DNA of 64,000 nucleotides from Octopus vulgaris (lineage: Eukaryota): positions 41,788,001 to 41,852,000 of the forward strand of contig OX597826.1 of assembly GCA_951406725.2 (NCBI GenBank), in the 5' to 3' direction. Below are positions 2,254-62,741 of this stretch, piece after piece. The translations under genes were made by a program, and so were the position numbers. A model generated the notes under the pieces. The model was not told the origin of the DNA. It searched no databases and was given only the letters and a program-made list of their open reading frames with translations. Within the stretch, counting starts at the first letter, position 1, and the number at the start of each line of letters is the position of its first letter.

Positions 2254-3472
2254 GTGCCACCAATGATTTGCAAAGGAAGTCACAGGTGTTGCAAGTATGA
2301 GGGTTACAGGTCAGTGCAGGTGGAATATTTGCAGCCGCTTTTCTCTTTTGCCATGCACTCCGACTTGAGAGAGAGAGGGGCTTTAAAAATCTTAAACGTC
2401 TTCAGAGACCACGTCTTCGTCTACACCACAAAACTACTCGTTTAGAATTTGCTCAGAATCACCAAACCCGGGATGTTCACAACTGGAAGAACTGGTTTTA
2501 TTCTCAGAAAAGAAGAAATTCAACCTTGATAGTCCTAATGGTTTACAACGGTATTGGCATGCAAAATACATTCTACCGGAAACTTTTTCAACGAGGCACA
2601 GTGGTGGAGGTTCTATCATGGTGTGGGGTGTTTTGTCGTACAGAGGAACTATGGAACTTGAGGTAGTGCAGGAGCGTCAAACAGCAGCTGGCTATGTTGG
2701 CATGTTAGAGTGCGCATCACTCTTGTCGAAGGCCCTCGTTTGTGTGGAGAGGGCTGGATTTATCAACAGGATAATGCTACAATCCGTGGAGGCGCAATGG
2801 CCCAGTGGTTAGGGCAGCGGACACGCGGTCATAGGATCGCGGTTTCGATTCCCAGATCGGGCGTTGTGAGTGTTTATTGAGCGAAAACACCTAAAAGCTC
2901 CACGAGGCTCCGGCAGGGGATGGTGGTGATCCCCGCTGTACTCTTTCACCACAACTTTCTCTCACTCTTACTTCCTGTTCCTGTTGTACCTGTATTTCAA
3001 GGGGCCGGCCTTGTCACTCTCTGTGTCACGCTGAATATCCCCGAGAACTACGTTAAGGGTGCACGTGTCTGTGGAGTGCTCAGCCACTTACACGTTAATT
3101 TCACGAGCAGGCTGTTCCGTTGATTCGGATCAACCGGAACCCTCATCGTCGTAACCGACGGAGTGCTTCCTCCTTAATGCTACAATCCATAATGCTCACA
3201 GGCCAATGGATTTCTTCAGAAGAAATAGTGTTCATCTTTTGAATCAACCCCCGTGTTCTCTTGACATAAAGCCCTTCGAAAAACTATGGAGATGGATGAC
3301 AAGAGACGTTTACAAAAATGGAACACAATTTGAGAATGTGGATGTTCTTCGCCAGGCAATCTTCATCCCGTGGCATAACATTCCAGATAATCGCCTGCAA
3401 ACGTTTGTGTCGAGTATGTCACAGCGAACGTTTGAAGCTATTCGCAGAAATGGTAGAGCTACTAACTACTGA
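2254..3472 (+). pseudogene. Tc3-like (Tc1/mariner) transposase pseudogene, split by a SINE
   Basis: Motifs [33 protein letters not shown][SINE]H, PPCSLDIKPFEKLW and [30 protein letters not shown] match the Tc3-type DDE domain. Frameshifts are present. Confidence 0.88.
2786..3174 (+). mobile_element. tRNA-derived SINE, family A (young, full length)
   Basis: tRNA-like head with A box (tggcccagtgg) and B box (gtttcgattcc). 14-bp TSD taatgctacaatcc at 2772-2785 and 3175-3188. Near-identical copies at 25618 and 44658. Confidence 0.95.
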
Positions 3473-16549: not shown

Positions 16550-18009
16550 ATTTAATGTCCTTTGTTGTCATCACTATTATTGTTGTTCTTGTTACTGTAG
16601 CTATGATTGAAGGCAGTGCTTCAGCATGACCCCGTCCATTGTGGCTGAAAAAAACTGAAAAACACTGAGGCTCCATTTTGGCTCCTTCATGTTGCTTTCA
16701 GCTGCTTACAAGAAAGTTGTTGTTGTTGTTGCTGCTGCTGGTGGTGGTCGTGGGTTTAATAGTATTGGTGATGGTAGTGGTGAGTTTAATGGTGGTGGTG
16801 GTGGTGGTGGTGGTGGTAGTGAGATGAAGTGGAAAAAAAGGAGGGTTGTGATCTTCGTATGTTTTTCCCACCCTACCAACGGGATATTAACACATTAACA
16901 TTGGGATCAATCATTAATTGAAACCATATTGAGGAAGATGTTTGCCTGGGATTGAAATCTTGCCCTACCAGAACAACTCTCTGATATTCCAACAGATAAC
17001 AACAAGAACAACAGTAAATCGTAATTTTTGTTGTTTTTGCTGACTTATCATGTTTCATGTTTAAAATGTAAGATAAAGTATCATTTATTTCTTGATTTTC
17101 ATATTGAAAATAAACAATTATCAGAGCCTGTTTTTGTCCTAAGAAAGAAAAAAAAGAAAAAAAAAAAAGAAACAAACTAATATCTATATATATAAAAACA
17201 CAAAAATGGAATTCTCCGAATATCTGTTCTCTTGAAACCAAATCTAGTTAAGATCCATAAAGGAGGACTATTTCTAATGGTTTTATATACGCCTAGGGCC
17301 TTAAATCCCAAGGGAATTCTAAAAATGCCTTTAGGTTATTATATTTCTGCAATGGGTGGGGGTAATAAATGATTTTATTAGATCAGGGGTATTCTTTTTC
17401 ATTTCTTTTGAAAACTTTGTACAATGCTGGAGTCTATGTAGATTATTTCAATCTAATTGCAATATGAGTATCTCAAGTTCAATCTCAACAAAGGTGCTAT
17501 TTTTATATTTCTAACAAAATTCGATACTGTTTTTATTATCTAAATATTTTCTTTATTAAGATCACTTTCTGGGTTAGAAATGTCCTTTTCACTTGCATTA
17601 TAATCAGAATGAACAATGGTGGAAACTGGTAGATACGGTGGAACGTCAGACATGTCATGTATAATGTTACGTTCCTTCATGTTCCGAGTTCAAATCCTGC
17701 CAGCGTCTACTTTGTGGTTTATCTTTCAGAAATCGATAAAATAAATACCAGTTTAATATTTGTGTCGAATTAATCAATGAAATATCTTAAATTTATGATC
17801 ATGTACATGTGTTAGAAAATGGAGAAGAGTGGCGAAGCAAACGATTGAGTCTTCGAATCCCATTGTACATGGTGGAATTGTAGAAACACTAAAGTACCGG
17901 AATAAATATCAAGTACAACCGAAATTTCCTAGTATATCTTCTGTGTGTTGTATTTTGTTTTCGAAAATCTACGTTGAATTCAAATCCTGCTCTGTTTATA
18001 ACCAAGAGA

Positions 18010-18982
18010 TATAATTCCTAATATCCCAGAATACCAAAGTATAAATAGACACCTTGAGATGAGGCTATATCTTACTGCTGTAGAATACAGATAAACTGGT
18101 ATGTGATAAGTAAAGGCTTCATTAGTTGATAGTGTTCAGATGTCCTCCTCCAATAATAAGACTCACATCGGAAGGGGAATTAACTCCGTTTGGCTGACAT
18201 GACCAAGACTCACTATACTCAAAAATATTTTTTTAAATGTATCCTTTTGTTGTAATATTCTTCTTAATAATCTTCTGAATAACCCTAAATTTTAACTTTA
18301 TTCAATATGGCAATATTGTTTAAAATATTTAATTATAGTACCCCATGATAAAATTTCTCCTGTCTCTATCAATGCTCTACTAGTGGCTTGCCCCTTTAAT
18401 TGTCCGCTAACATCTTGATTTAAGATTTCCTTTACCAAATCTCATTATATTGCTTCAAATTAATCTTGATAGTTTTATGACTATACCCACTATGATTTCT
18501 GTCAACTCCCTCAGTCCCCTTCCTAAAGACACTGCTCCTTGTTCTTTGGCTTTAGATTTTGATATACAAAGATTTGATAAGCAAGACTATAAATTAAAAC
18601 TGACCCCAAAATAACAGTGACAAGCTAGATCTTAAACAAGTCTTTTTTCCTGATACCTTAGTAGCTTCTAAGCTGAAGGGAAGACAGCATGTTTTTTGTC
18701 TATCTCCTTTACTTTCTTGGAGGTTTTAGGTAAAATTATACTAATGTGTCCATCGGTTTTAATTTAAATTAATTATATGTCTGTATGCATCTGGGGATTG
18801 CTATGCATTTAAATTGATGTAATGATTGCATTGTTCAATTAAATGGAGTTGCTTGAAACGATCGTACTGCATTACCTCTGGATATCTTTGTTGCTTATTT
18901 TAATCATCTTATTTTGAAATTGTATGGATAATACCTTGCTAAATTCTGGTGCCTCAACTGAAGTACCTAATTCATCTGAATC
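18010..18982 (+). mobile_element. HHR-bearing element, family H1, copy with decayed core
   Basis: 18716-18982 is homologous to 56054-56327, 59843-59979 and (inverted) 58600-58830. The interior is homologous to 59350-59470. A (TATG)n tract follows. Confidence 0.8.
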
Positions 18983-18994
18983 TAAATTTTTGCT

Positions 18995-23090: not shown

Positions 23091-23211
23091 GCCGACGACC
23101 ATATCACGTTTGAATGCAGCGGTTCTCATCCGATCACTGAGGTTAAGAAATGTCTAGCCTACTTAGTACTTAGATGGGTGATTGCTTGAGAAACCGGGGT
23201 GCAGTAAGCAT
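23091..23211 (+). pseudogene. 5S rRNA pseudogene, full length and diverged
   Basis: gccgacgaccatatcacgtttgaa...gttctcatccgatcactgaggttaag...ttagtacttagatgggtga...ggtgcagtaagca is colinear with invertebrate 5S rRNA. Many substitutions and no T4 terminator immediately downstream. Confidence 0.9.
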
Positions 23212-25460: not shown

Positions 25461-25617
25461 CGTCGTGTATTGGAATGTAGTACCTTGACATTTTCAGGCA
25501 ATGCTGCTGATCACGTGTGATGTCTTCTACAGAAAAGTGACAGAATAGACATTTTCAGTTGCATCTCGGGGCTCTAAGGACTTCATTTACTCTTTTGTAT
25601 CATGTATTTTCTAGCGA

Positions 25618-26009
25618 GTGGAGGCGCAATGGCCCAGTGGTCAGGGCAGCGGACTCGCGGTCACATGATCACGGTTTCGATTCCCAGACCGGGCGTTGTG
25701 AGTGTTTATTGAGCGAAAACACCTATAAAGCTCCACGAGGCTCCGGTAGGGGATGGTGGTGATCCCTGCTGTACTCTTTCACCACAACTTTCTCTCACTC
25801 TTACTTCCTGTTTCTGTTGTACCTGTATTTCAAGGGGCCGGCCTTGTCACTCTCTGTGTCACGCTGAATATCCCCGAGAACTACGTTAAGGGTGCACGTG
25901 TCTGTGGAGTGCTCAGCCACTTACACTTTGATTTCACGAGCAGGCTGTTCCGTTGATCGGATCAACCGGAACCCTCATCGTCGTTACCGACGGAGTGCTT
26001 CCATCCATC
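25618..26009 (+). mobile_element. SINE family A, full length
   Basis: Near-identical to the 2786 copy. TSD attttctagc(g/t)a at 25606-25617 and 26010-26021. Confidence 0.95.
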
Positions 26010-40047: not shown

Positions 40048-40954
40048 TACTGTAATACATACATACTTAGGCGCATGCATGTCGGTGTGATTTAGAATCT
40101 CGCTTAGAACCATGAGATTTCGGGATCAGTTCCACCGCTCAGCCTCTTGGACAAGTGTTTTGTACTATAGCTCTGGGCTATAGTACAAAAACAGCGACTT
40201 GGAAAATTCAGCTTGCGCTTCCGTAAGAAAGTTTGCCAGAAACAAGACAACCCGTGGAAAAACTTTTAGTACGAAATATCCTTGAAAATATCAGTGTTAC
40301 ACCCGGTACAAACCAGTCACTCAACACCCTAAAGTCCCCAATTGCAGACAAATGCATAAGCTTGAAGAACAAGCGAGTCGAGCAAGCGACACAGCACCGA
40401 ATAGAAAGGTCGCTGAAGCCAATTCGTGACCGGAAAACTTTTCACGTCTATTTTTTCAAAAACTGACGTCAAGTTTTTGGACAGAAAAGTTAAGTTTTCA
40501 GAAGGCAGAATAATGACAGAGTCGCTTTGCAAGCTCGCGTCATCGCGTATTTACCTTCATCGCCGTTCCGATCATCCACATCATAATTAGGTCAAATTCA
40601 AAATCTCAGTTTTTGAGGATAAAACGGATTTGTACTGATATTGGGGATTACTGGAAACATGCAAATGTTTTTGTACGCCATTAAGTCAAACTCCGTTACA
40701 GTGAACCACTGTTAACGGAAATTGCAAATGACATAGCTAAAATTAGCAAGGAGAGCCATACATTCACGTATAATTCTAGCAACCAAAGTAAAATTTGTAA
40801 ACGAATTCCTTTACAGATTAATTGGTGCCGAAATTTTTCTGGCATATCAAAAGTGTTGCATGAAAGCTACCAGCATATTTCAGAAAAATATCCTCGTTTC
40901 AAATAAATAATCTCTCACCCACCTATTCGAGCCTTTAGGCAAAATAAAAATATA

Positions 40955-41187
40955 TGTTTCTTTACTACCTACAAGGGGCTAAACATAGAGGGGACAAACA
41001 AGGACAGACACACGGATTAAGTCGATTACATCGACCCCAGTGCGTAACTGATACTTAATTTATCGACCCCAAAAGGATGAAAGGCAAAGTCAACCTCGGT
41101 GGAATTTGAACTCAGAACGTAGCGACGGGCGAAATACCGCGAAGCACTTCGACCGGCGTGCTAACGTCTCTGCCAGCTCGCCGCCTT
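40955..41187 (-). mobile_element. Family B SINE, full length
   Basis: TSD aaataaaaatata on both sides. Confidence 0.93.
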
Positions 41188-44325: not shown

Positions 44326-44657
44326 TACACACACAAGGGTTTCCACGTACTTTCCGTCTAATAAAACCACATCGGTTAGCCCGGGGCTCATGACACTTGC
44401 TCATGATAACGCGTAGTGAGACCGAACCTGAAACCACGTGAATGAGAAGCGAAGTTCTCAACAAACTTATTGTTTATAAGTGAATCTAGTCGAAATAACT
44501 AAATTTTAATTAGTAAAATAATTTTGTCATTACACATTGTCTACATGGAATTAAGTTTACCTGGGATGAGAATTTTTCTATCCACGAATCATCATTAAAT
44601 ATTTAAGTATTTTTCACCTTATAGAATAGTAATTCAGACTGGCATACACCAGTTTTA

Positions 44658-45041
44658 GTGGAGACGCAATGGCCAAGTGGTTAGGGCAGCGGACTCGCAG
44701 TCATAAGATCGCGGTTTCGATTCCCAGACCGGGCGTTGTGAGTGTTTATTGAGCGAAAACACCTAAAGCTCCACGAGGCTCCGGCAGGGGATGGTGGTGA
44801 TCCCTGCTGTACTCTTTCACCACAACTTTCTCTCACACTTACTTCCTGTTTCTGTTGTACCTGTATTTCAAAGGGCCGGCCTTGTCACTCTCTGTGTCAC
44901 GCTGAATATCCCCGAGAACTACGTTAAGGGTGCACGTGTCTGTGGAGTGCTCAGCCACTTACACGTTAATTTCACGAGCAGGCTGTTCCGTTGATTCGGA
45001 TCACCCGGAACCCTCGTCGTCGTAACCGACGGAGTGCTTCC
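44658..45041 (+). mobile_element. SINE family A, full length
   Basis: TSD acaccagtttta at 44646-44657 and 45042-45053. Confidence 0.95.
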
Positions 45042-45949
45042 ACACCAGTTTTAAAAACCTAATTCACCTACACTACTGATTTATTTTAAATCTATTTTAA
45101 AACTGAGAATTTAATTATTTTTATACCAAAATTTTTGATTTAAAATACGCTCTATGTAAAATAAAAAAAATCCTCAGTTTTAATACATTATGAAAACACT
45201 TGTAGATGTTTTTAAAAGGAACTTTAAAGACAAGTGGCTGTTTCGTTTTTCTCTATAATTTACAACTATTAATGAAGCCTTCATTTTGTGGAGACACTGC
45301 CTAACTTCGTAGCAATTTATAACGTTTTAAACATCTTTCCCAGTCTCAAAATTTTGTGTTGCCACCTTCTTTAAATAATTATGGCAACAGAACCTTTTGT
45401 AATTAATAATAAATAATTTACGATCAATTTACTAATTGAATTTGTCATACCTAGAAACATGCCCTTTACAACCGACTCTTAGAAAACATTTCGCCATAAC
45501 ATGCAAGTGAGTGATCCAGGTTCGAATATTGAGGGTTGAACATTGCTGTAACTAGTTGCAACTGTTGTCATGTAGCATTGAATTATTACTTAATCCTGAT
45601 TATAAAGAAAACAGAAAACTTGTAGAATCATTAACACGCTGAACAACCTGCTTAGTGACATTTATTCTGGCTTTTTACGTTCTGAGTTCAAATTGACTTT
45701 ACATCCTTTCGAAGTTGTAGTCTAGTATTAGGGTCCACGTATTTGACTATGCCTTTCCCCTAAAATTGCTGGCAATGTGACTAAATCGCAAACCACAAGT
45801 ATTATAGTTTAAATTTATTATTGTTATTATAGTGTGGGTATATTTTTCTTCGGTTCATGCGTCGAGGAGGTGAATTTGTATTATTTTATTAATTGTCCCA
45901 CTTTGAAGAAATAAAACTTTGATCCAGGATTTAAGTTTTTAAGAGGAGG

Positions 45950-55945: not shown

Positions 55946-55968
55946 GCCCTTGACTATATATATATATA

Positions 55969-56327
55969 TCAAGATAAGCAACAAGACTATCCAGAGGTAA
56001 TGCAGTACGATCGTTTCATGCGGCTTAATTTAATTGAACAATGCAATCTCCTCTTGGAGATTTTGGGTAAAATTATACTAATGTGTCCTTCTAATTTAAT
56101 TAAATTCTATGTCTTTGTGCAGCTGAAGGTTGCTCTACGTTTTAAATTGATGTAATGAAATGATTGCATTGTTCGATTAAATTAAGTCGCATGAAACGAT
56201 CGTACTGCATTACCTCTGGATATCCTTTTTGCTTATTTTGATTTTAATCACCTTATTTTGAAATTGTATGGTTAATACCATACTAAATTCTGGTGCCTCA
56301 ACTTAAGTACCATATTCATCTGAATCT
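55969..56327 (+). mobile_element. Miniature family H1 element with an inverted partial terminal repeat
   Basis: 55969-56048 is inverted relative to 56161-56242. HHR-like motif at 56117-56210. (TA)n and (TC)(TA)n flanks. Confidence 0.85.
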
Positions 56328-57500: not shown

Positions 57501-58535
57501 ATTGTTAAACAATATTTAAATACATAGTAATTATTAAGAGTAATTTTACATAATGCTGTATGCATATGACCCTTGTAACATAATGTTGATGTGGGATGCA
57601 GAGCGTACGTCGTGATCTGCCATTAAGCTTGTTGACTTCCGTCCGCATGTGCCTTATTATAATTATATACTATAATGTAATATGATGCGATGAAATATAA
57701 CATAATATAATATATGTGCACGTGTGTGAGTGTGTGCATGGATGTGTGTATGTGTGTATGTGTGTGCACGCGCACGTGTATGGACATATGTATATACTAG
57801 CAAAATATGCACGAGCATATATACTAACAAATAGCCAAACATCTTTGTCTAGACTATTATATGCGTATTCGTGTATACTAATGAATATTTATATATATAT
57901 ATATATGTGGTGCCCCAGCATGGCCACAGCCTTTGGGCTGAAATGTGTAAAAGAATTGAAGAATATATTCATACATACATACATACATACATACATACAT
58001 ACATACATACATACATACATACATACGTACATACATACATACATATATATTCACTAAGCTGTATATATCATGTATATATATATACTAATCAAATATATAC
58101 CTACACATACAGTGACGAACTTACACGTATATAGAAACCAATATATACATATATCCTGGCAAAGCAAGTCGCATGCTTAGTTAACTAGTACTAATTGCGG
58201 TTTTCACAAAAGCCCAAGGTCACACGAGAACTTATTCTAAAACGTTTACCGTAGTTTCATTGTTCTTATCTATTGCAGTACTGCTATTGAATATCCCACA
58301 CTTCACTAAGTCTATAAAGTATGTAAATTTTTCTTTCTTTAAATATAAACGAGCTTTATAATCCTCACTGCTGGCGCTCAGAATTTTTATATATTTACCT
58401 GTCACGCTTAAACAGTCAGTCACAAAACAACAGCTTGAGAAGCCGAACGAAACTTTTCTCACGGTTAATAACATCTTTTAGATTTTGTTAATCAAGTCGT
58501 TAAACCAAATGTTACCAGCTTCATTTCATGTACTT

Positions 58536-58602
<67 letters not shown>

Positions 58603-58726
58603 AGAAATAATTAAGATTCAGTTGAATTAGGTACTTAAGTTGAAGCACCAAGTCAGTTCGGTATTATCCGCACAGCTTGAGGTAAGGTGTATAAAATCAA
58701 AATAAGGAACAGGATATCAAGTAGGA

Positions 58727-58814
58727 ATGCAGTACGACCGTTTCAAGCGGCTCCATTTAATTGAACAATCCAATCATTACCTCAATTTAAATGCAGTGTA
58801 ATCTTCAGCTGCAC
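58727..58814 (-). ncRNA. Type I hammerhead-like ribozyme with long stem II (H1)
   Basis: gtgcag-CTGAAGA-57 nt hairpin-GAAA-cggtcg-TA-ctgcat. Confidence 0.72.
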
Positions 58815-59859
58815 AAAAAATAGAATTTTTTAACAAGTAGAACTCATTAATATTATGCAAGATACTTATACTATATTCATATAAGCGTATAAATGTTTGT
58901 GTATATGTATGTGTATATGCACAAATATATATGTGTGTGCATGTATATATATATAAACAAAACTCTTTGTATATATATATATCTGCATGCATTATTTTAC
59001 ACTTTGCACATAGTTATATCAGCATATATTTTTCGAGTATTTACATTCTTTATGCTTTAGATTTTTTGATTTTTGTTTAAATGTGTCTATGTATTACCAT
59101 TATCTCAATATCCTGCTCTGATTCATGGCTTAAAATGAATAGATAGTATGTATATCTTTCCAGATATTCCATTTGTAAGTGGCTTGAGCAGTCTTTATAG
59201 AAACCACCTAATAATTAGTTAATTAAGTTCAAGAATGCTATTAAACTGACTCTACATAATCTTCTTTCTTAATGTTTATAATTAATACACACACACCGTT
59301 TAGCTATTTTGGTTATGACATTTTTTGGAATTCTTAAATATTATTTTTATACAACATAACAATATTGTTTATAAACATTCCCCTATCGTGCCCCGAATAA
59401 ATTCTCCCTGTATTAGCATCTGAAGTTTCTTAGTCTCTTGCTCCTTAACTGGTAATTAACATCATGATTTAAAGTCTACCCCTATCCTGCCTCTATTTTT
59501 ATAGACACTTACTTCTATCAAATTGACTCTTCCTAATGTTTTATTTCCTTTCTCTTGGGGAAAAGGGATATCTATGATAATATTTATGACCATACCACTT
59601 GTTCTTTATTCAAAATAAACACTGTCTTCTAGTTTCAGATTCAATAGATGATAAAGAGACAATTAAATTAGAAATGAATTACAACCCTCACAACCCTATG
59701 ACCCCACTACGCTCCATGCGATTCTAAGAAATTATAGTCTATTCTTAGCCACTTTGCCACAATAGCGACAACATGAATTTCTTCCAACTTTTTACTCTGT
59801 TAAAATATTTAAGAAAAATTATATTACTGTGTCCTACATGGTAAAAAATTCTATATTTT

Positions 59860-59947
59860 GTGCAGCTGAAGATAGAACTGCATTCAAATTGATGTAATGA
59901 TTGCATTGTTCAATTAAATGGAGCTGCTTGAAACGATCGTACTGCAT
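59860..59947 (+). ncRNA. Type I hammerhead-like ribozyme with long stem II (H1)
   Basis: gtgcag-CTGAAGA-57 nt hairpin-GAAA-cgatcg-TA-ctgcat. Confidence 0.75.
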
Positions 59948-61404
59948 TACTACTTGATATCCTGTTGCTTATTTTGATTATATATATATATATATATATA
60001 GTTGCTAACATGCAAAAGTGTCGTAAGTCGAAAACGTTGCTTTTTCAGAAAACGAATACTTTCACCATTTCATAGCAAAACCGTTGTACTGCACTTAGAC
60101 AATTTTTGATATCTTGGCATCTGGAGCAGCTGGAGATATAATAGTTTGACCAAAAGAATTGGCTATTGCAAACAAAAATAAATATTGAAAAAAGCACGGT
60201 CGGCCAAATTTGGACATTATCTATGATTAATGTTGTCCCCACCCCCACCCCACTGTATAATATTTTCTTGTTAAGTTTCTCATGCTCTCTGCATTTTAAC
60301 ACTAGCTTAACTGCGGATGACGTATCTGAATTATTTATTTCTCTTAGCTACTATAACACAAATTAATCAAGAAGTTGGAGGCCATATAAGATAGTCAACA
60401 TATTATGAAATTCATACTGTATAATTTCATATTCACATTGGACATATAACACACAGTTGAATCATTTGCGGGCAGTGGATTAACAAACTCGTGTGAGCAT
60501 CCGTAAACGTTTTCCGGTATTTGATCATGCTCTTTACTTCATGGTTTCAAATTTTGCTGAGATTAATTTATGCCTTTCATCCTTTCACGGTCGCTGAAAT
60601 AAAGTACTATTTAAGTACGGAGATTGATGGTATTGACCAACTTCCTCGTACGCAGTTGCTAGCCTTCTGCTTAAAATTGAAACAATATACATTTGAAATG
60701 TTAGAGACCAGATAATCATTTTTAAAAGCCAATTATTAATCCTACAGAGATATTCTGCAAAAGAATAATAAACTGCAAGCTGGCTCTTAGAAACATGATA
60801 AGGAAACGTAAGTCTAAACATTTGCACTCTAGAAATTCGAGATTGTTCTGTTGACTCAATAAATAAGACAGCCGAGAAAAAATTTCGATATTTAATATTG
60901 ACTAATATTCTTCCTTTACTGTCACAGCTGGTTGCCTGAAAAGAGTGACAGTTTAAAAGATGAAAGAGCTATGAGTTTGTATTTTCTCCCCATTGCTATG
61001 ACCATAGTTTTCAGTTCGCTTATCTGTAGGCTGTAGCTACCATGAAGTGCTAATTTTCTGTGTCACAAACGATTGCTTCATTCGTTAGCTTTCAGTGATT
61101 CAGTGATCAATGTCATGTGAAAAAACTTACGCTTTTATCGTACTCTATTAAAGGGTTGGCAGTTGTACTTCAGTGCTACAATAGCTTGGGATTTCGGATA
61201 AGCTCCATGTATGCCAGGACACATTCCGTTAGTTGTGAAGAATCAGGAATGTTTCAATTTCACAACTTTGGAGAGAAGGGTATAATCTATTTACAGAATT
61301 ATTGCCATCGAGCTGGTCAACAGTAAAAGAGGTTCCAATCCCGATCGTCCTTCTTTTTTTTGTTTTTTAGATATAGTGCATTTAGTGTTACACTCTTTTA
61401 TCTT

Positions 61405-61740
61405 TTAACTTTTACTTGTGTCAATAATTAGACTGCGCCCATGCTGGGGCACCGTCTTGAAGTATTTTTAGTCGAATTAATCAACCCAAGTACTTTTTTC
61501 AAGCCTGGTACTTATTCCATCGATATCGTTTGCCGAACCGTTAAGTGACGGAACATAAACACACCACCACCGGTTGTCAAGCAGTGATGGTGGGGAAAAC
61601 ACAAAGACGCACACACATAGATATATACATACATATATACGACAAGCTTCTTTCGGTTTCCGTCTACCAAATCCACTCACAAGGCTTTGGTCGGTTCGAG
61701 GCTATATTAGAAGACACTTTCCCAAGGTTCCATGCAGTAG
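61405..61740 (-). mobile_element. Family E SINE
   Basis: Reverse complement of the 9799 copy from the CORE region to the tail. Confidence 0.85.
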
Positions 61741-61920
61741 GAGTGAACTTGTCAGGTTACAAACTCACAAGTGAGACTGGAGCTAGGGATCCGCACTAGG
61801 CTTCCGATCCAGCAGGTATGCGATAGGGGAAAAGAAAAAAAACAGTACGAGTATCTCATGTCGTTTAGAATATTTAATTAGAGTGAAGTGAATTAAAAAT
61901 GGAGATGTAGAAGTAATTAA

Positions 61921-61998
61921 TGCCTTACAACTGTTTCTGGTACATCCCAAGTGATGGGCCAACATCTCCATACACTGGCTATACTGTCATCAGAGACA
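61921..61998 (-). ncRNA. Type I hammerhead-like ribozyme with intact core (H2)
   Basis: tgtct-CTGATGA-49 nt-GAAA-cagttg-TA-aggca. Confidence 0.75.
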
Positions 61999-62439
61999 GG
62001 GTGTGTATTTAGGAAAGTTCCAGATAGAGACTTCACAGTATATAAAGTATAAAAAAGTAGATAGAAGAATAAATATAAAAGAATAAAGTTTACCGTTGAT
62101 CTTGTTCCAGTGGGTATGGTTCTTAGTCCGTACTTCCGTGTAAGTATAGCCCCTTAAGTATAATCCCAGTTTGTAAAAAAAATGCGGATTATTTTTCTTA
62201 CAACTTAACCATTTGATCTATTCCCTCAGTCTGAATGCAACATTCAAAATACTGCCTGGATTTAGCTGGGATTATATATTTAAGGGGCCATACTTACACG
62301 GAATTACGGACTAAATTCCATACCCTCTGGAACAAGATGAACTGTGAACTTTATTCTTCTGTCTTTATTCTTCCATCTACTGTTTGATTCTTTTATATGC
62401 TGTGAATTCTCTGTCTGGAACTTTCCTACATACGCATCC

Positions 62440-62517
62440 TGTCTCTGGTGACGGTATAGCCAGTGTATGGAGATGCTGACCCATCAACTGGGATATCTCA
62501 GAAACAGCTGTAAGACG
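62440..62517 (+). ncRNA. Type I hammerhead-like ribozyme with core A6>G (H2)
   Basis: tgtct-CTGGTGA-49 nt-GAAA-cagctg-TA-agacg. Confidence 0.65.
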
Positions 62518-62638
62518 TTAATTATTTGTACTACTCCATTTTTGATTCGCCTTACCCTAATTAAATATTCTAAATGACCTGAGATACTCGTGCTGCCTTG
62601 GTTTCGTTTTCATTTTCTTTTAATATTCTTTTACAAGA

Positions 62639-62669
<31 letters not shown>

Positions 62670-62676
62670 TACATAC

Positions 62677-62741
<65 letters not shown>

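What the first reader, a model, noticed from the sequence alone, without database searches (positions are those of the whole stretch)
58600..59979. Element in (TA)n bounded by two outward-facing hammerheads with a giant stem II (family H1)
Seen: inverted termini, each reading stem I (gtgcag/ctgcat), CUGAAGA, a 57-nt insert that folds as a long hairpin (cattt[a]aattga..gtaatg/cattgt..tcaattaaatg), GAAA, a palindromic stem III (cgatcg) and a GUA site. Four full motifs occur in the window, all near simple repeats. Known: Penelope-like elements and retrozymes carry type I HHRs with a palindromic stem III that act as dimers, and PLEs often have inverted pseudo-LTRs, but their stem II is usually short. 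Inference: this is a non-autonomous PLE/retrozyme-like family with an atypical ribozyme, in which a transcript of either strand could self-cleave near its 3' end. The base of stem II is not cleanly paired, so activity is unproven.
Basis: partly seen in the sequence, partly recalled or inferred. Interest (0 to 1): 0.8.

Follow-up and report, generated by a model that had tools for sequence, protein, structure and literature searches.

The report
Long-armed hammerhead in Penelope-like repeat
The two outward-facing motifs are worn copies of a very abundant repeat end that carries a hammerhead-type RNA motif with an unusually long middle arm; it likely comes from a Penelope-like jumping gene, a known pairing, and self-cutting is untested.

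Summary
The motifs are real: both have stem I, CUGAAGA, a 57-nt insert, GAAA, ACGATCGT and a UA site (generic descriptor: 2 hits, 0 in 100 shuffles). But 58.6-60 kb is not one element with fixed inverted termini. It is a ~970-nt copy (59007-59978) and a short inverted 5'-truncated copy (58856-58614) of a high-copy family, separated by ~150 nt of near single-copy microsatellite. Public contigs show 9 different head-to-head junctions. Both window pairs have one short (+37 nt) and one long (+120 nt) 3' end. These are known signatures of Penelope-like element (PLE) insertion into (TA)n. Only 2 of 4 complete copies keep the core, and those two have damaged stem II bases. A read-through RNA would fold the arms into a 167-bp duplex that hides the ribozyme. 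Family-level lines keep CUGANGA with only N7 varying, and a U·U junction like Hydra-clade PLE hammerheads. No ORF remnant was detected. No Rfam hit. A ~54-nt stem II is already published for a plant PLE. A second, unrelated head-to-head family with a 49-nt insert lies at 61.8-62.6 kb. Verdict: new variant of a known kind; activity untested.

The parts
58541..58600 (.). (TA)n left flank, likely insertion target
58614..58856 (-). Copy L: short 5'-truncated inverted copy with the long 3' end (about 120 nt past the predicted cut)
58727..58814 (-). Hammerhead-like motif of copy L (core intact; stem II base and stem III palindrome each carry a mutation)
58857..59006 (.). Degenerate TA/TG microsatellite spacer, near single-copy, not family sequence
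   Evidence: depth 51 in bin 58949-59009 against flank 49 (run X1); 58890-58994 was skipped there as repeat
59007..59859 (+). T-rich body of copy R; multi-copy, depth rising towards the hammerhead; colinear with 17925-18770; no ORF remnant detected
59860..59947 (+). Hammerhead-like motif of copy R: stem I, CUGAAGA, 57-nt insert, GAAA, palindromic stem III, predicted cut after 59941
59948..59978 (+). Short 3' end (37 nt past the predicted cut), followed by (TA)n
17925..18984 (+). Long solo copy C18 (core mutated to CTGGGGA), long 3' end, followed by (TATG)n
55968..56048 (-). Copy C56.0: inverted, truncated inside the insert, short 3' end, ends in (TA)n
56050..56327 (+). Copy C56.1: 5'-truncated, core CTGAAGG, 63-nt insert, long 3' end, abuts C56.0 head to head
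61843..62595 (.). Second, unrelated head-to-head family (H2) with a 49-nt insert: - motif from CTGATGA 61993, + motif from CTGGTGA 62445

Best explanation
This is a head-to-head pair of decayed copies of a high-copy repeat whose 3' end carries a type I hammerhead motif with a 57-nt stem II, likely made by the copying machinery of a Penelope-like retroelement inserting into (TA)n. Inferred mechanism: the hammerhead-sense strand is the RNA template; a PLE reverse transcriptase/endonuclease (partner not identified, probably acting in trans) nicks AT-rich DNA and starts cDNA at one of two sites, about 37 or 120 nt past the predicted cut. Synthesis usually stops early, and a second cDNA of opposite direction joins the first, giving pairs with variable junctions and one long and one short end. 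In the source RNA the motif would cut after GUA as a dimer through the ACGAUCGU palindrome, with U·U closing a 2-3 bp stem II base, an internal loop and a long AU-rich extension. The two flagged copies are probably inactive.
For: Shown: summed contig depth 741,789 and 870,557 over the motif against 49 and 43 in the left flank (runs X1, X2), falling to 465 at 59010 (depth is only a rough guide, order 10^4 copies). Nine distinct left-arm-to-right-arm junctions among the 27 joint rows shown (286 rows not shown; most rest on one contig). Two discrete 3' ends, one of each in 2 of 2 window pairs. Each pair shares three private bases. Microsatellite at the 3' end of 5 of 5 copies. CTGANGA intact with only N7 varying (3 A, 3 G) in 6 of the 7 loose-end consensus lines that cover it. 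GAAA and UA intact in 5 of 5 copies. From print: inverted 5'-truncated copies, a tail at one end only and (TA)n targets in PLEs (PMC8557442); two RT start sites make the tail (PMC11167929); opposite-strand hammerhead pairs 100-700 bp apart and dimer-type stem III (PMC4209133); 'ctgaNgat...tgaa' junction in Hydra-clade hammerheads.
Against: No reverse transcriptase or endonuclease remnant in the body on either strand: scores within the shuffle range for a 123-protein Neptune-like and a 12-protein Naiad-like profile, while control PLE remnants in the window scored 95 and 193 bits; no Pfam hit better than E 2.6 in 12 frames. No Rfam hammerhead match at E up to 10. No G10.1-C11.1 pair. Insert folding not better than shuffles; the hammerhead-compatible monomer fold is 4.5-7.3 kcal/mol worse than the free ensemble. 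No covariation above control in 4 sequences (369 of 500 shuffles as high); the consensus fold pairs the core in a rival way. The seventh consensus line (run X19, 10 contigs) lacks the intact box. One 5' variant would mismatch the first pair of stem I. The tail is ~83 nt, not 30-40. No direct tandem seen.
Confidence: 0.68

Rival explanations
1. PLE-derived as above, but the motif is vestigial: a once-short stem II was swollen by an insertion and the fold now serves only as a protein-binding hairpin or not at all.
For: Weak folding, rival registers and a second CTGCAT inside the insert of copies R and L that competes for stem I; the 5' half varies more than the 3' half; hammerhead cleavage is dispensable for insertion in vitro in an anole PLE.
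Against: Core box kept with only N7 varying in 6 of 7 consensus lines; a second 5' variant pairs with the same 3' strand right up to the junction (-10.7 and -12.9 kcal/mol with copies R and L; phase not observed); an unrelated family in the same window also has a long insert with core, stem I and palindrome.
Confidence: 0.25
2. A SINE-like or LINE-mobilised non-autonomous element that captured a PLE terminal repeat.
For: About 1 kb, no ORF detected, 5'-truncation gradient.
Against: No poly(A) or fixed repeat tail (five different junctions to microsatellites); head-to-head pairs with unequal tails are PLE signatures.
Confidence: 0.12
3. A non-LTR retrozyme replicating through circular RNA.
For: Type I hammerhead with palindromic stem III, no ORF, length near the published range of 51-972 bp.
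Against: Retrozymes are defined by tandem units; no tandem array of this unit in the window; copies are truncated and inverted.
Confidence: 0.07
4. One 1.4-kb element with terminal inverted repeats.
For: 167-nt arms 89% complementary inside (TA)n.
Against: Arms end at different points; spacer near single-copy; 9 other junctions; solo copy at 17.9-19.0 kb.
Confidence: 0.04

Closest known systems
Type I hammerheads in pseudo-LTRs of metazoan Penelope-like elements (Cervera and de la Pena 2014, PMC4209133)
   Same: Type I topology, short palindromic stem III, extra nucleotide before stem II, dispersed truncated copies, pairs on opposite strands
   Different: Their stem II is 6-8 bp with a conserved G10.1-C11.1 pair; here 57 nt lie between the boxes and the junction is U·U
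Hydra-clade PLE hammerheads, including Hydra-1_Obim (Craig et al. 2021, PMC8557442, File S2)
   Same: 'ctgaNgat ... tgaa' junction, often followed by tgc; motif 100-200 nt from the 3' end; (TA)n target
   Different: Stem II 3-7 bp there; the Hydra-1_Obim motif differs in sequence; no Hydra ORF shown here (not tested)
PLE-X1_sMoe / PLE-X1_sTam hammerheads and Naiad 'HHR_half_core' cases (same paper)
   Same: Long distance between the core boxes (about 54 nt in PLE-X1_sMoe; 35-50 nt in eight Naiads)
   Different: Plant or Naiad elements; there a large loop caps a clean stem, here a long irregular hairpin; octopus Naiad consensuses lack this motif
Animal non-LTR retrozymes (bioRxiv 10.64898/2026.07.22.740005)
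   Same: Non-coding, type I hammerhead, proposed PLE derivation
   Different: Defined by tandem units; none seen here

Membership tests
Type I hammerhead ribozyme | CUGANGA box | tested here: met
   2 of 4 complete window copies; 6 of 7 consensus lines, N7 variable
Type I hammerhead ribozyme | GAAA box, stem III and NUH site | tested here: met
   5 of 5 copies; palindrome perfect in 4 of 5
Type I hammerhead ribozyme | Open stem I flanking the core | tested here: met
   6 bp in 3 of 4 copies, 5 bp in C18
Type I hammerhead ribozyme | Stem II helix next to the core, usually G10.1-C11.1 | tested here: inconclusive
   U·U junction then 2-3 bp; 66.7% of cells paired; broken in R and L; same junction as Hydra-clade motifs
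Type I hammerhead ribozyme | Covariation in the helices | tested here: inconclusive
   4 sequences only; 369 of 500 shuffles as high
Type I hammerhead ribozyme | Match to an Rfam hammerhead model | tested here: not met
   No hammerhead family among 26 matches at E up to 10 in 58500-62700 or in the 150 of 234 rows listed for the window
Type I hammerhead ribozyme | Self-cleavage | not testable with these tools
   Only contigs were available
Penelope-like element | PLE reverse transcriptase with or without GIY-YIG endonuclease | tested here: not met
   Neptune-like and Naiad-like profiles within shuffle range; Hydra, Poseidon and Nematis profiles not available, so it is filed as PLE-derived by behaviour, not as an autonomous member
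Penelope-like element | Hammerhead near the 3' end; 5' truncation | tested here: met
Penelope-like element | Inverted 5'-truncated copy joined head to head | tested here: met
   2 pairs in the window, 9 junctions in contigs
Penelope-like element | Tail present at one end only | tested here: met
   2 of 2 pairs; about 83 nt against 30-40 in print
Penelope-like element | Direct partial tandems (pseudo-LTRs) | tested here: inconclusive
   None in the window; no genome held
Non-LTR retrozyme | Tandem units each with a hammerhead | tested here: not met
   window only
Non-LTR retrozyme | Circular RNA intermediate | not testable with these tools
   no raw RNA reads listed
MITE / TIR DNA transposon | Fixed, matched terminal inverted repeats shared by copies | tested here: not met
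   unequal ends, variable junctions

The most novel reading that the evidence does not exclude
In this animal lineage (octopus-like, by recall) several unrelated Penelope-derived families carry active, dimer-forming type I hammerheads whose stem II has grown to a 49-57-nt hairpin: a class of tens of thousands of ribozymes per genome that Rfam and published descriptors miss, with subfamilies that rebuilt the stem II base by different 5' strands.
Probability: 0.33. Interest if true: 0.6.

Novelty: new variant of a known kind. Interest (0 to 1): 0.42.

Why it matters
If active, long-stem-II hammerheads would widen the fold space of natural hammerheads and mean that PLE families scored as lacking canonical hammerheads, or left unclassified in cephalopod repeat libraries, need a re-scan with a longer spacer. 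The two 3' ends and many head-to-head junctions give a large natural data set for the two-start-site model of PLE reverse transcription. The general association of hammerheads with PLE ends and inverted pairs is already known, so the surprise is moderate.

Tried and rejected
Coding remnant in the body: motif chains matched by eye on either strand (Naiad-like on the antisense, Neptune-like on the sense strand) failed three statistical tests against shuffles and are rejected as unproven. A word-based protein search with one frame of copy C18 gave no hit at E up to 10 among 257 candidates; the full HMMER search gave one hit (P0124, E 7e-4, unnamed 105-aa protein), unexplained. The window's two Neptune-like remnants (40.4 and 46 kb) are not linked to this family. 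Collection scans: 0 hits of the full motif in metagenome and viral contigs; 2 hits of a 19-mer lacked the core and stem I. The family model found 0 matches in 22 loci picked by a Naiad-type RT pattern; its 36.1-kb hit has no core. Expression: no RNA holder listed; the RNA-guess run X19 covers the motif at 1.6% of the X1 depth, against 1.9-4.5% for the neighbouring repeat, so no enrichment; contigs cannot show ends or strand. No whole genome is held. The script machine was lost, so a planned core-versus-flank count was not made.

Full report
Observation. The sequence shows both motifs as described. On the + strand: GTGCAG 59860-65, CTGAAGA 59866-72, a 57-nt insert, GAAA 59930-33, ACGATCGT, predicted cut after 59941, CTGCAT 59942-47. 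On the - strand: CTGAAGA from 58808, GAAA from 58744, CTGCAT 58732-27. A generic type I descriptor found 2 motifs in the window and 0 in each of 100 shuffles. Five family copies exist. Two have mutated cores and one lacks the 5' half, so 'four full motifs' holds for outline only. Rfam gave no hammerhead match. The host looks like an octopus from its SINEs and microsatellites; this is recalled, not tested.

What the unit is. The body of the right copy (59030-59850) aligns colinearly with 17925-18770 upstream of a solo copy (interior score 109 against a shuffle maximum of 79). Contigs of four public runs laid on 58400-60200 (4 of the 24 runs listed) give depth 43-49 in the left flank (runs X1, X2), 51 at 58949-59009 and 465 at 59010-59070 (X1), rising unevenly to 741,789 over the motif. 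One record spans 59007-59875. The tool warns that summed depth is not a copy number; I take it only as order 10^4. So the right copy starts near 59007, the left near 58856, and the ~150 nt between are not family sequence. Among the 27 joint rows shown (286 not shown), nine distinct junctions join an inverted motif to a forward one at different truncation points; most rest on single contigs with 29-52 letters on the short side where given. The window holds a second such pair with no spacer (55968-56327). Copies end either 37-38 nt or about 120 nt past the predicted cut, and each pair has one of each. Each pair shares three private bases, which suggests one insertion event per pair.

Comparison with print. 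Craig et al. (PMC8557442; passages; supplement parts 1, 2, 24, 52 of 59 and searches) describe inverted 5'-truncated copies, a 30-40 bp tail at one end only and (TA)n targets. Frangieh et al. (PMC11167929; parts 1-2 of 4) trace the tail to two internal RT start sites, and find the hammerhead protein-assisted and dispensable in vitro. Cervera and de la Pena (PMC4209133; parts 1-2 of 4) report dimer-type hammerheads and pairs on opposite strands 100-700 bp apart. File S2 of Craig et al. lists Hydra-clade motifs with the same 'ctgaNgat...tgaa' junction and a plant motif with about 54 nt between the boxes. The motif itself was not found in that supplement by exact search (line breaks can hide a match), and the octopus Naiad 3' ends and the Hydra-1_Obim motif differ. 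Seven paper searches showed no report of this family. I saw passages only of PMC6962438, PMC6765202, PMC10886601 and PMC13282606 (no mention of hammerhead or ribozyme in its main text; supplements closed) and parts 1-2 of 5 of the retrozyme preprint.

Is it a ribozyme? For: GAAA and UA intact in 5 of 5 copies; stem I 6 bp in 3 of 4; palindrome perfect in 4 of 5. The loose-end consensus lines keep CTGANGA with only the free position N7 varying in 6 of 7 lines (agreement about 0.6; the seventh, 10 contigs of run X19, does not). They show two 5' strands for stem II. The common one gives U·U, then 2-3 pairs, an internal loop and an AU-rich extension; this register is the minimum-energy fold of the isolated insert in copies C18 and C56.1. 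The other pairs with the window 3' strands up to the junction (-10.7, -12.9, -7.1, -6.5 kcal/mol), but its own 3' strand was not seen in phase and it would mismatch the first pair of stem I. Against: insert z-scores -0.11 to -1.4; the hammerhead-compatible monomer is 4.5-7.3 kcal/mol worse than the free ensemble; no covariation above control in 4 sequences. Copies R and L each break a junction G-C pair and L breaks the palindrome. A read-through RNA of the whole unit is predicted to pair the arms over about 167 nt in both the minimum-energy and centroid folds, which would hide the motif; only one motif is in sense on either strand, so no dimer partner lies in cis.

Body. It is T-rich on the hammerhead strand (39% T). 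Profiles from 123 Neptune-like proteins and 12 Naiad-like ORFs (of 22 loci) gave scores within the shuffle range on both strands of both long copies, with three methods, while two control remnants scored 95 and 193 bits with the Neptune-like profile. The body is thus a long 3' untranslated region, a non-autonomous body, or an ORF of an untested clade decayed beyond detection. The mobilising partner is not identified.

Second family. A relaxed pattern found a third motif at 61993-61926. It has a 49-nt insert that folds as a hairpin with a 5-bp base, a 5-bp stem I and a near-palindromic stem III, and an inverted partner at 62445 with a perfect palindrome and a mutated core; the arms are 85-86% complementary over more than 300 nt. 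Its sequence is unrelated to the flagged family, so long stem II occurs at least twice in this genome.

Verdict. A real, high-copy, PLE-like 3' end with an atypical long-stem-II hammerhead motif, seen here as an ordinary inverted insertion of two decayed copies. Architecture and dimer logic are known; the long stem II has precedent in plants and Naiad half-cores, but I found none for a high-copy animal family with this fold. New variant of a known kind, interest 0.42; cleavage is untested.

Noticed in passing
window 61843-62595: Second head-to-head family with a hammerhead-like motif and 49-nt stem II insert; palindromic stem III; (TA)-rich repeat from 62639.
   Followed up: partly
window 46785-46034 (-) and 40417-40999 (+): Two decayed Neptune-like Penelope ORF remnants (thumb, linker and, at 46 kb, GIY-YIG), not linked to the hammerhead family.
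   Followed up: partly
window 59315-59375 and 18256-18424: Best-conserved part of the body; its antisense translation matches an unnamed, internally duplicated 105-aa protein P0124 (E 7e-4). Unexplained.
   Followed up: partly
window 60010-60200: Another high-copy repeat directly right of the (TA)n flank (depth up to 258,645 in run X2).
   Followed up: no
window 23091-23210 (+): 5S rRNA match above the gathering score (55.8 bits); gene, pseudogene or 5S-derived SINE head.
   Followed up: no
window 2786-3170, 25617-26003, 44657-45042: Young ~385-nt repeat family, 95-97% identical; tRNA-SINE-like families at 34.1-35.1, 38.1-38.4, 40.9-41.2, 46.7-47.1 kb.
   Followed up: no
window 2301-2812 (+): Tc1/mariner transposase remnant (PF01498, E 5.5e-4).
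   Followed up: no
L003-L024: Several prokaryotic genome records carry ORFs that look like animal Naiad-type Penelope elements, probably host DNA in the assemblies.
   Followed up: partly
window 6040-5950 (-): CTGAGGA followed by a long hairpin but no clear GAAA/stem III; possibly a further decayed motif.
   Followed up: no
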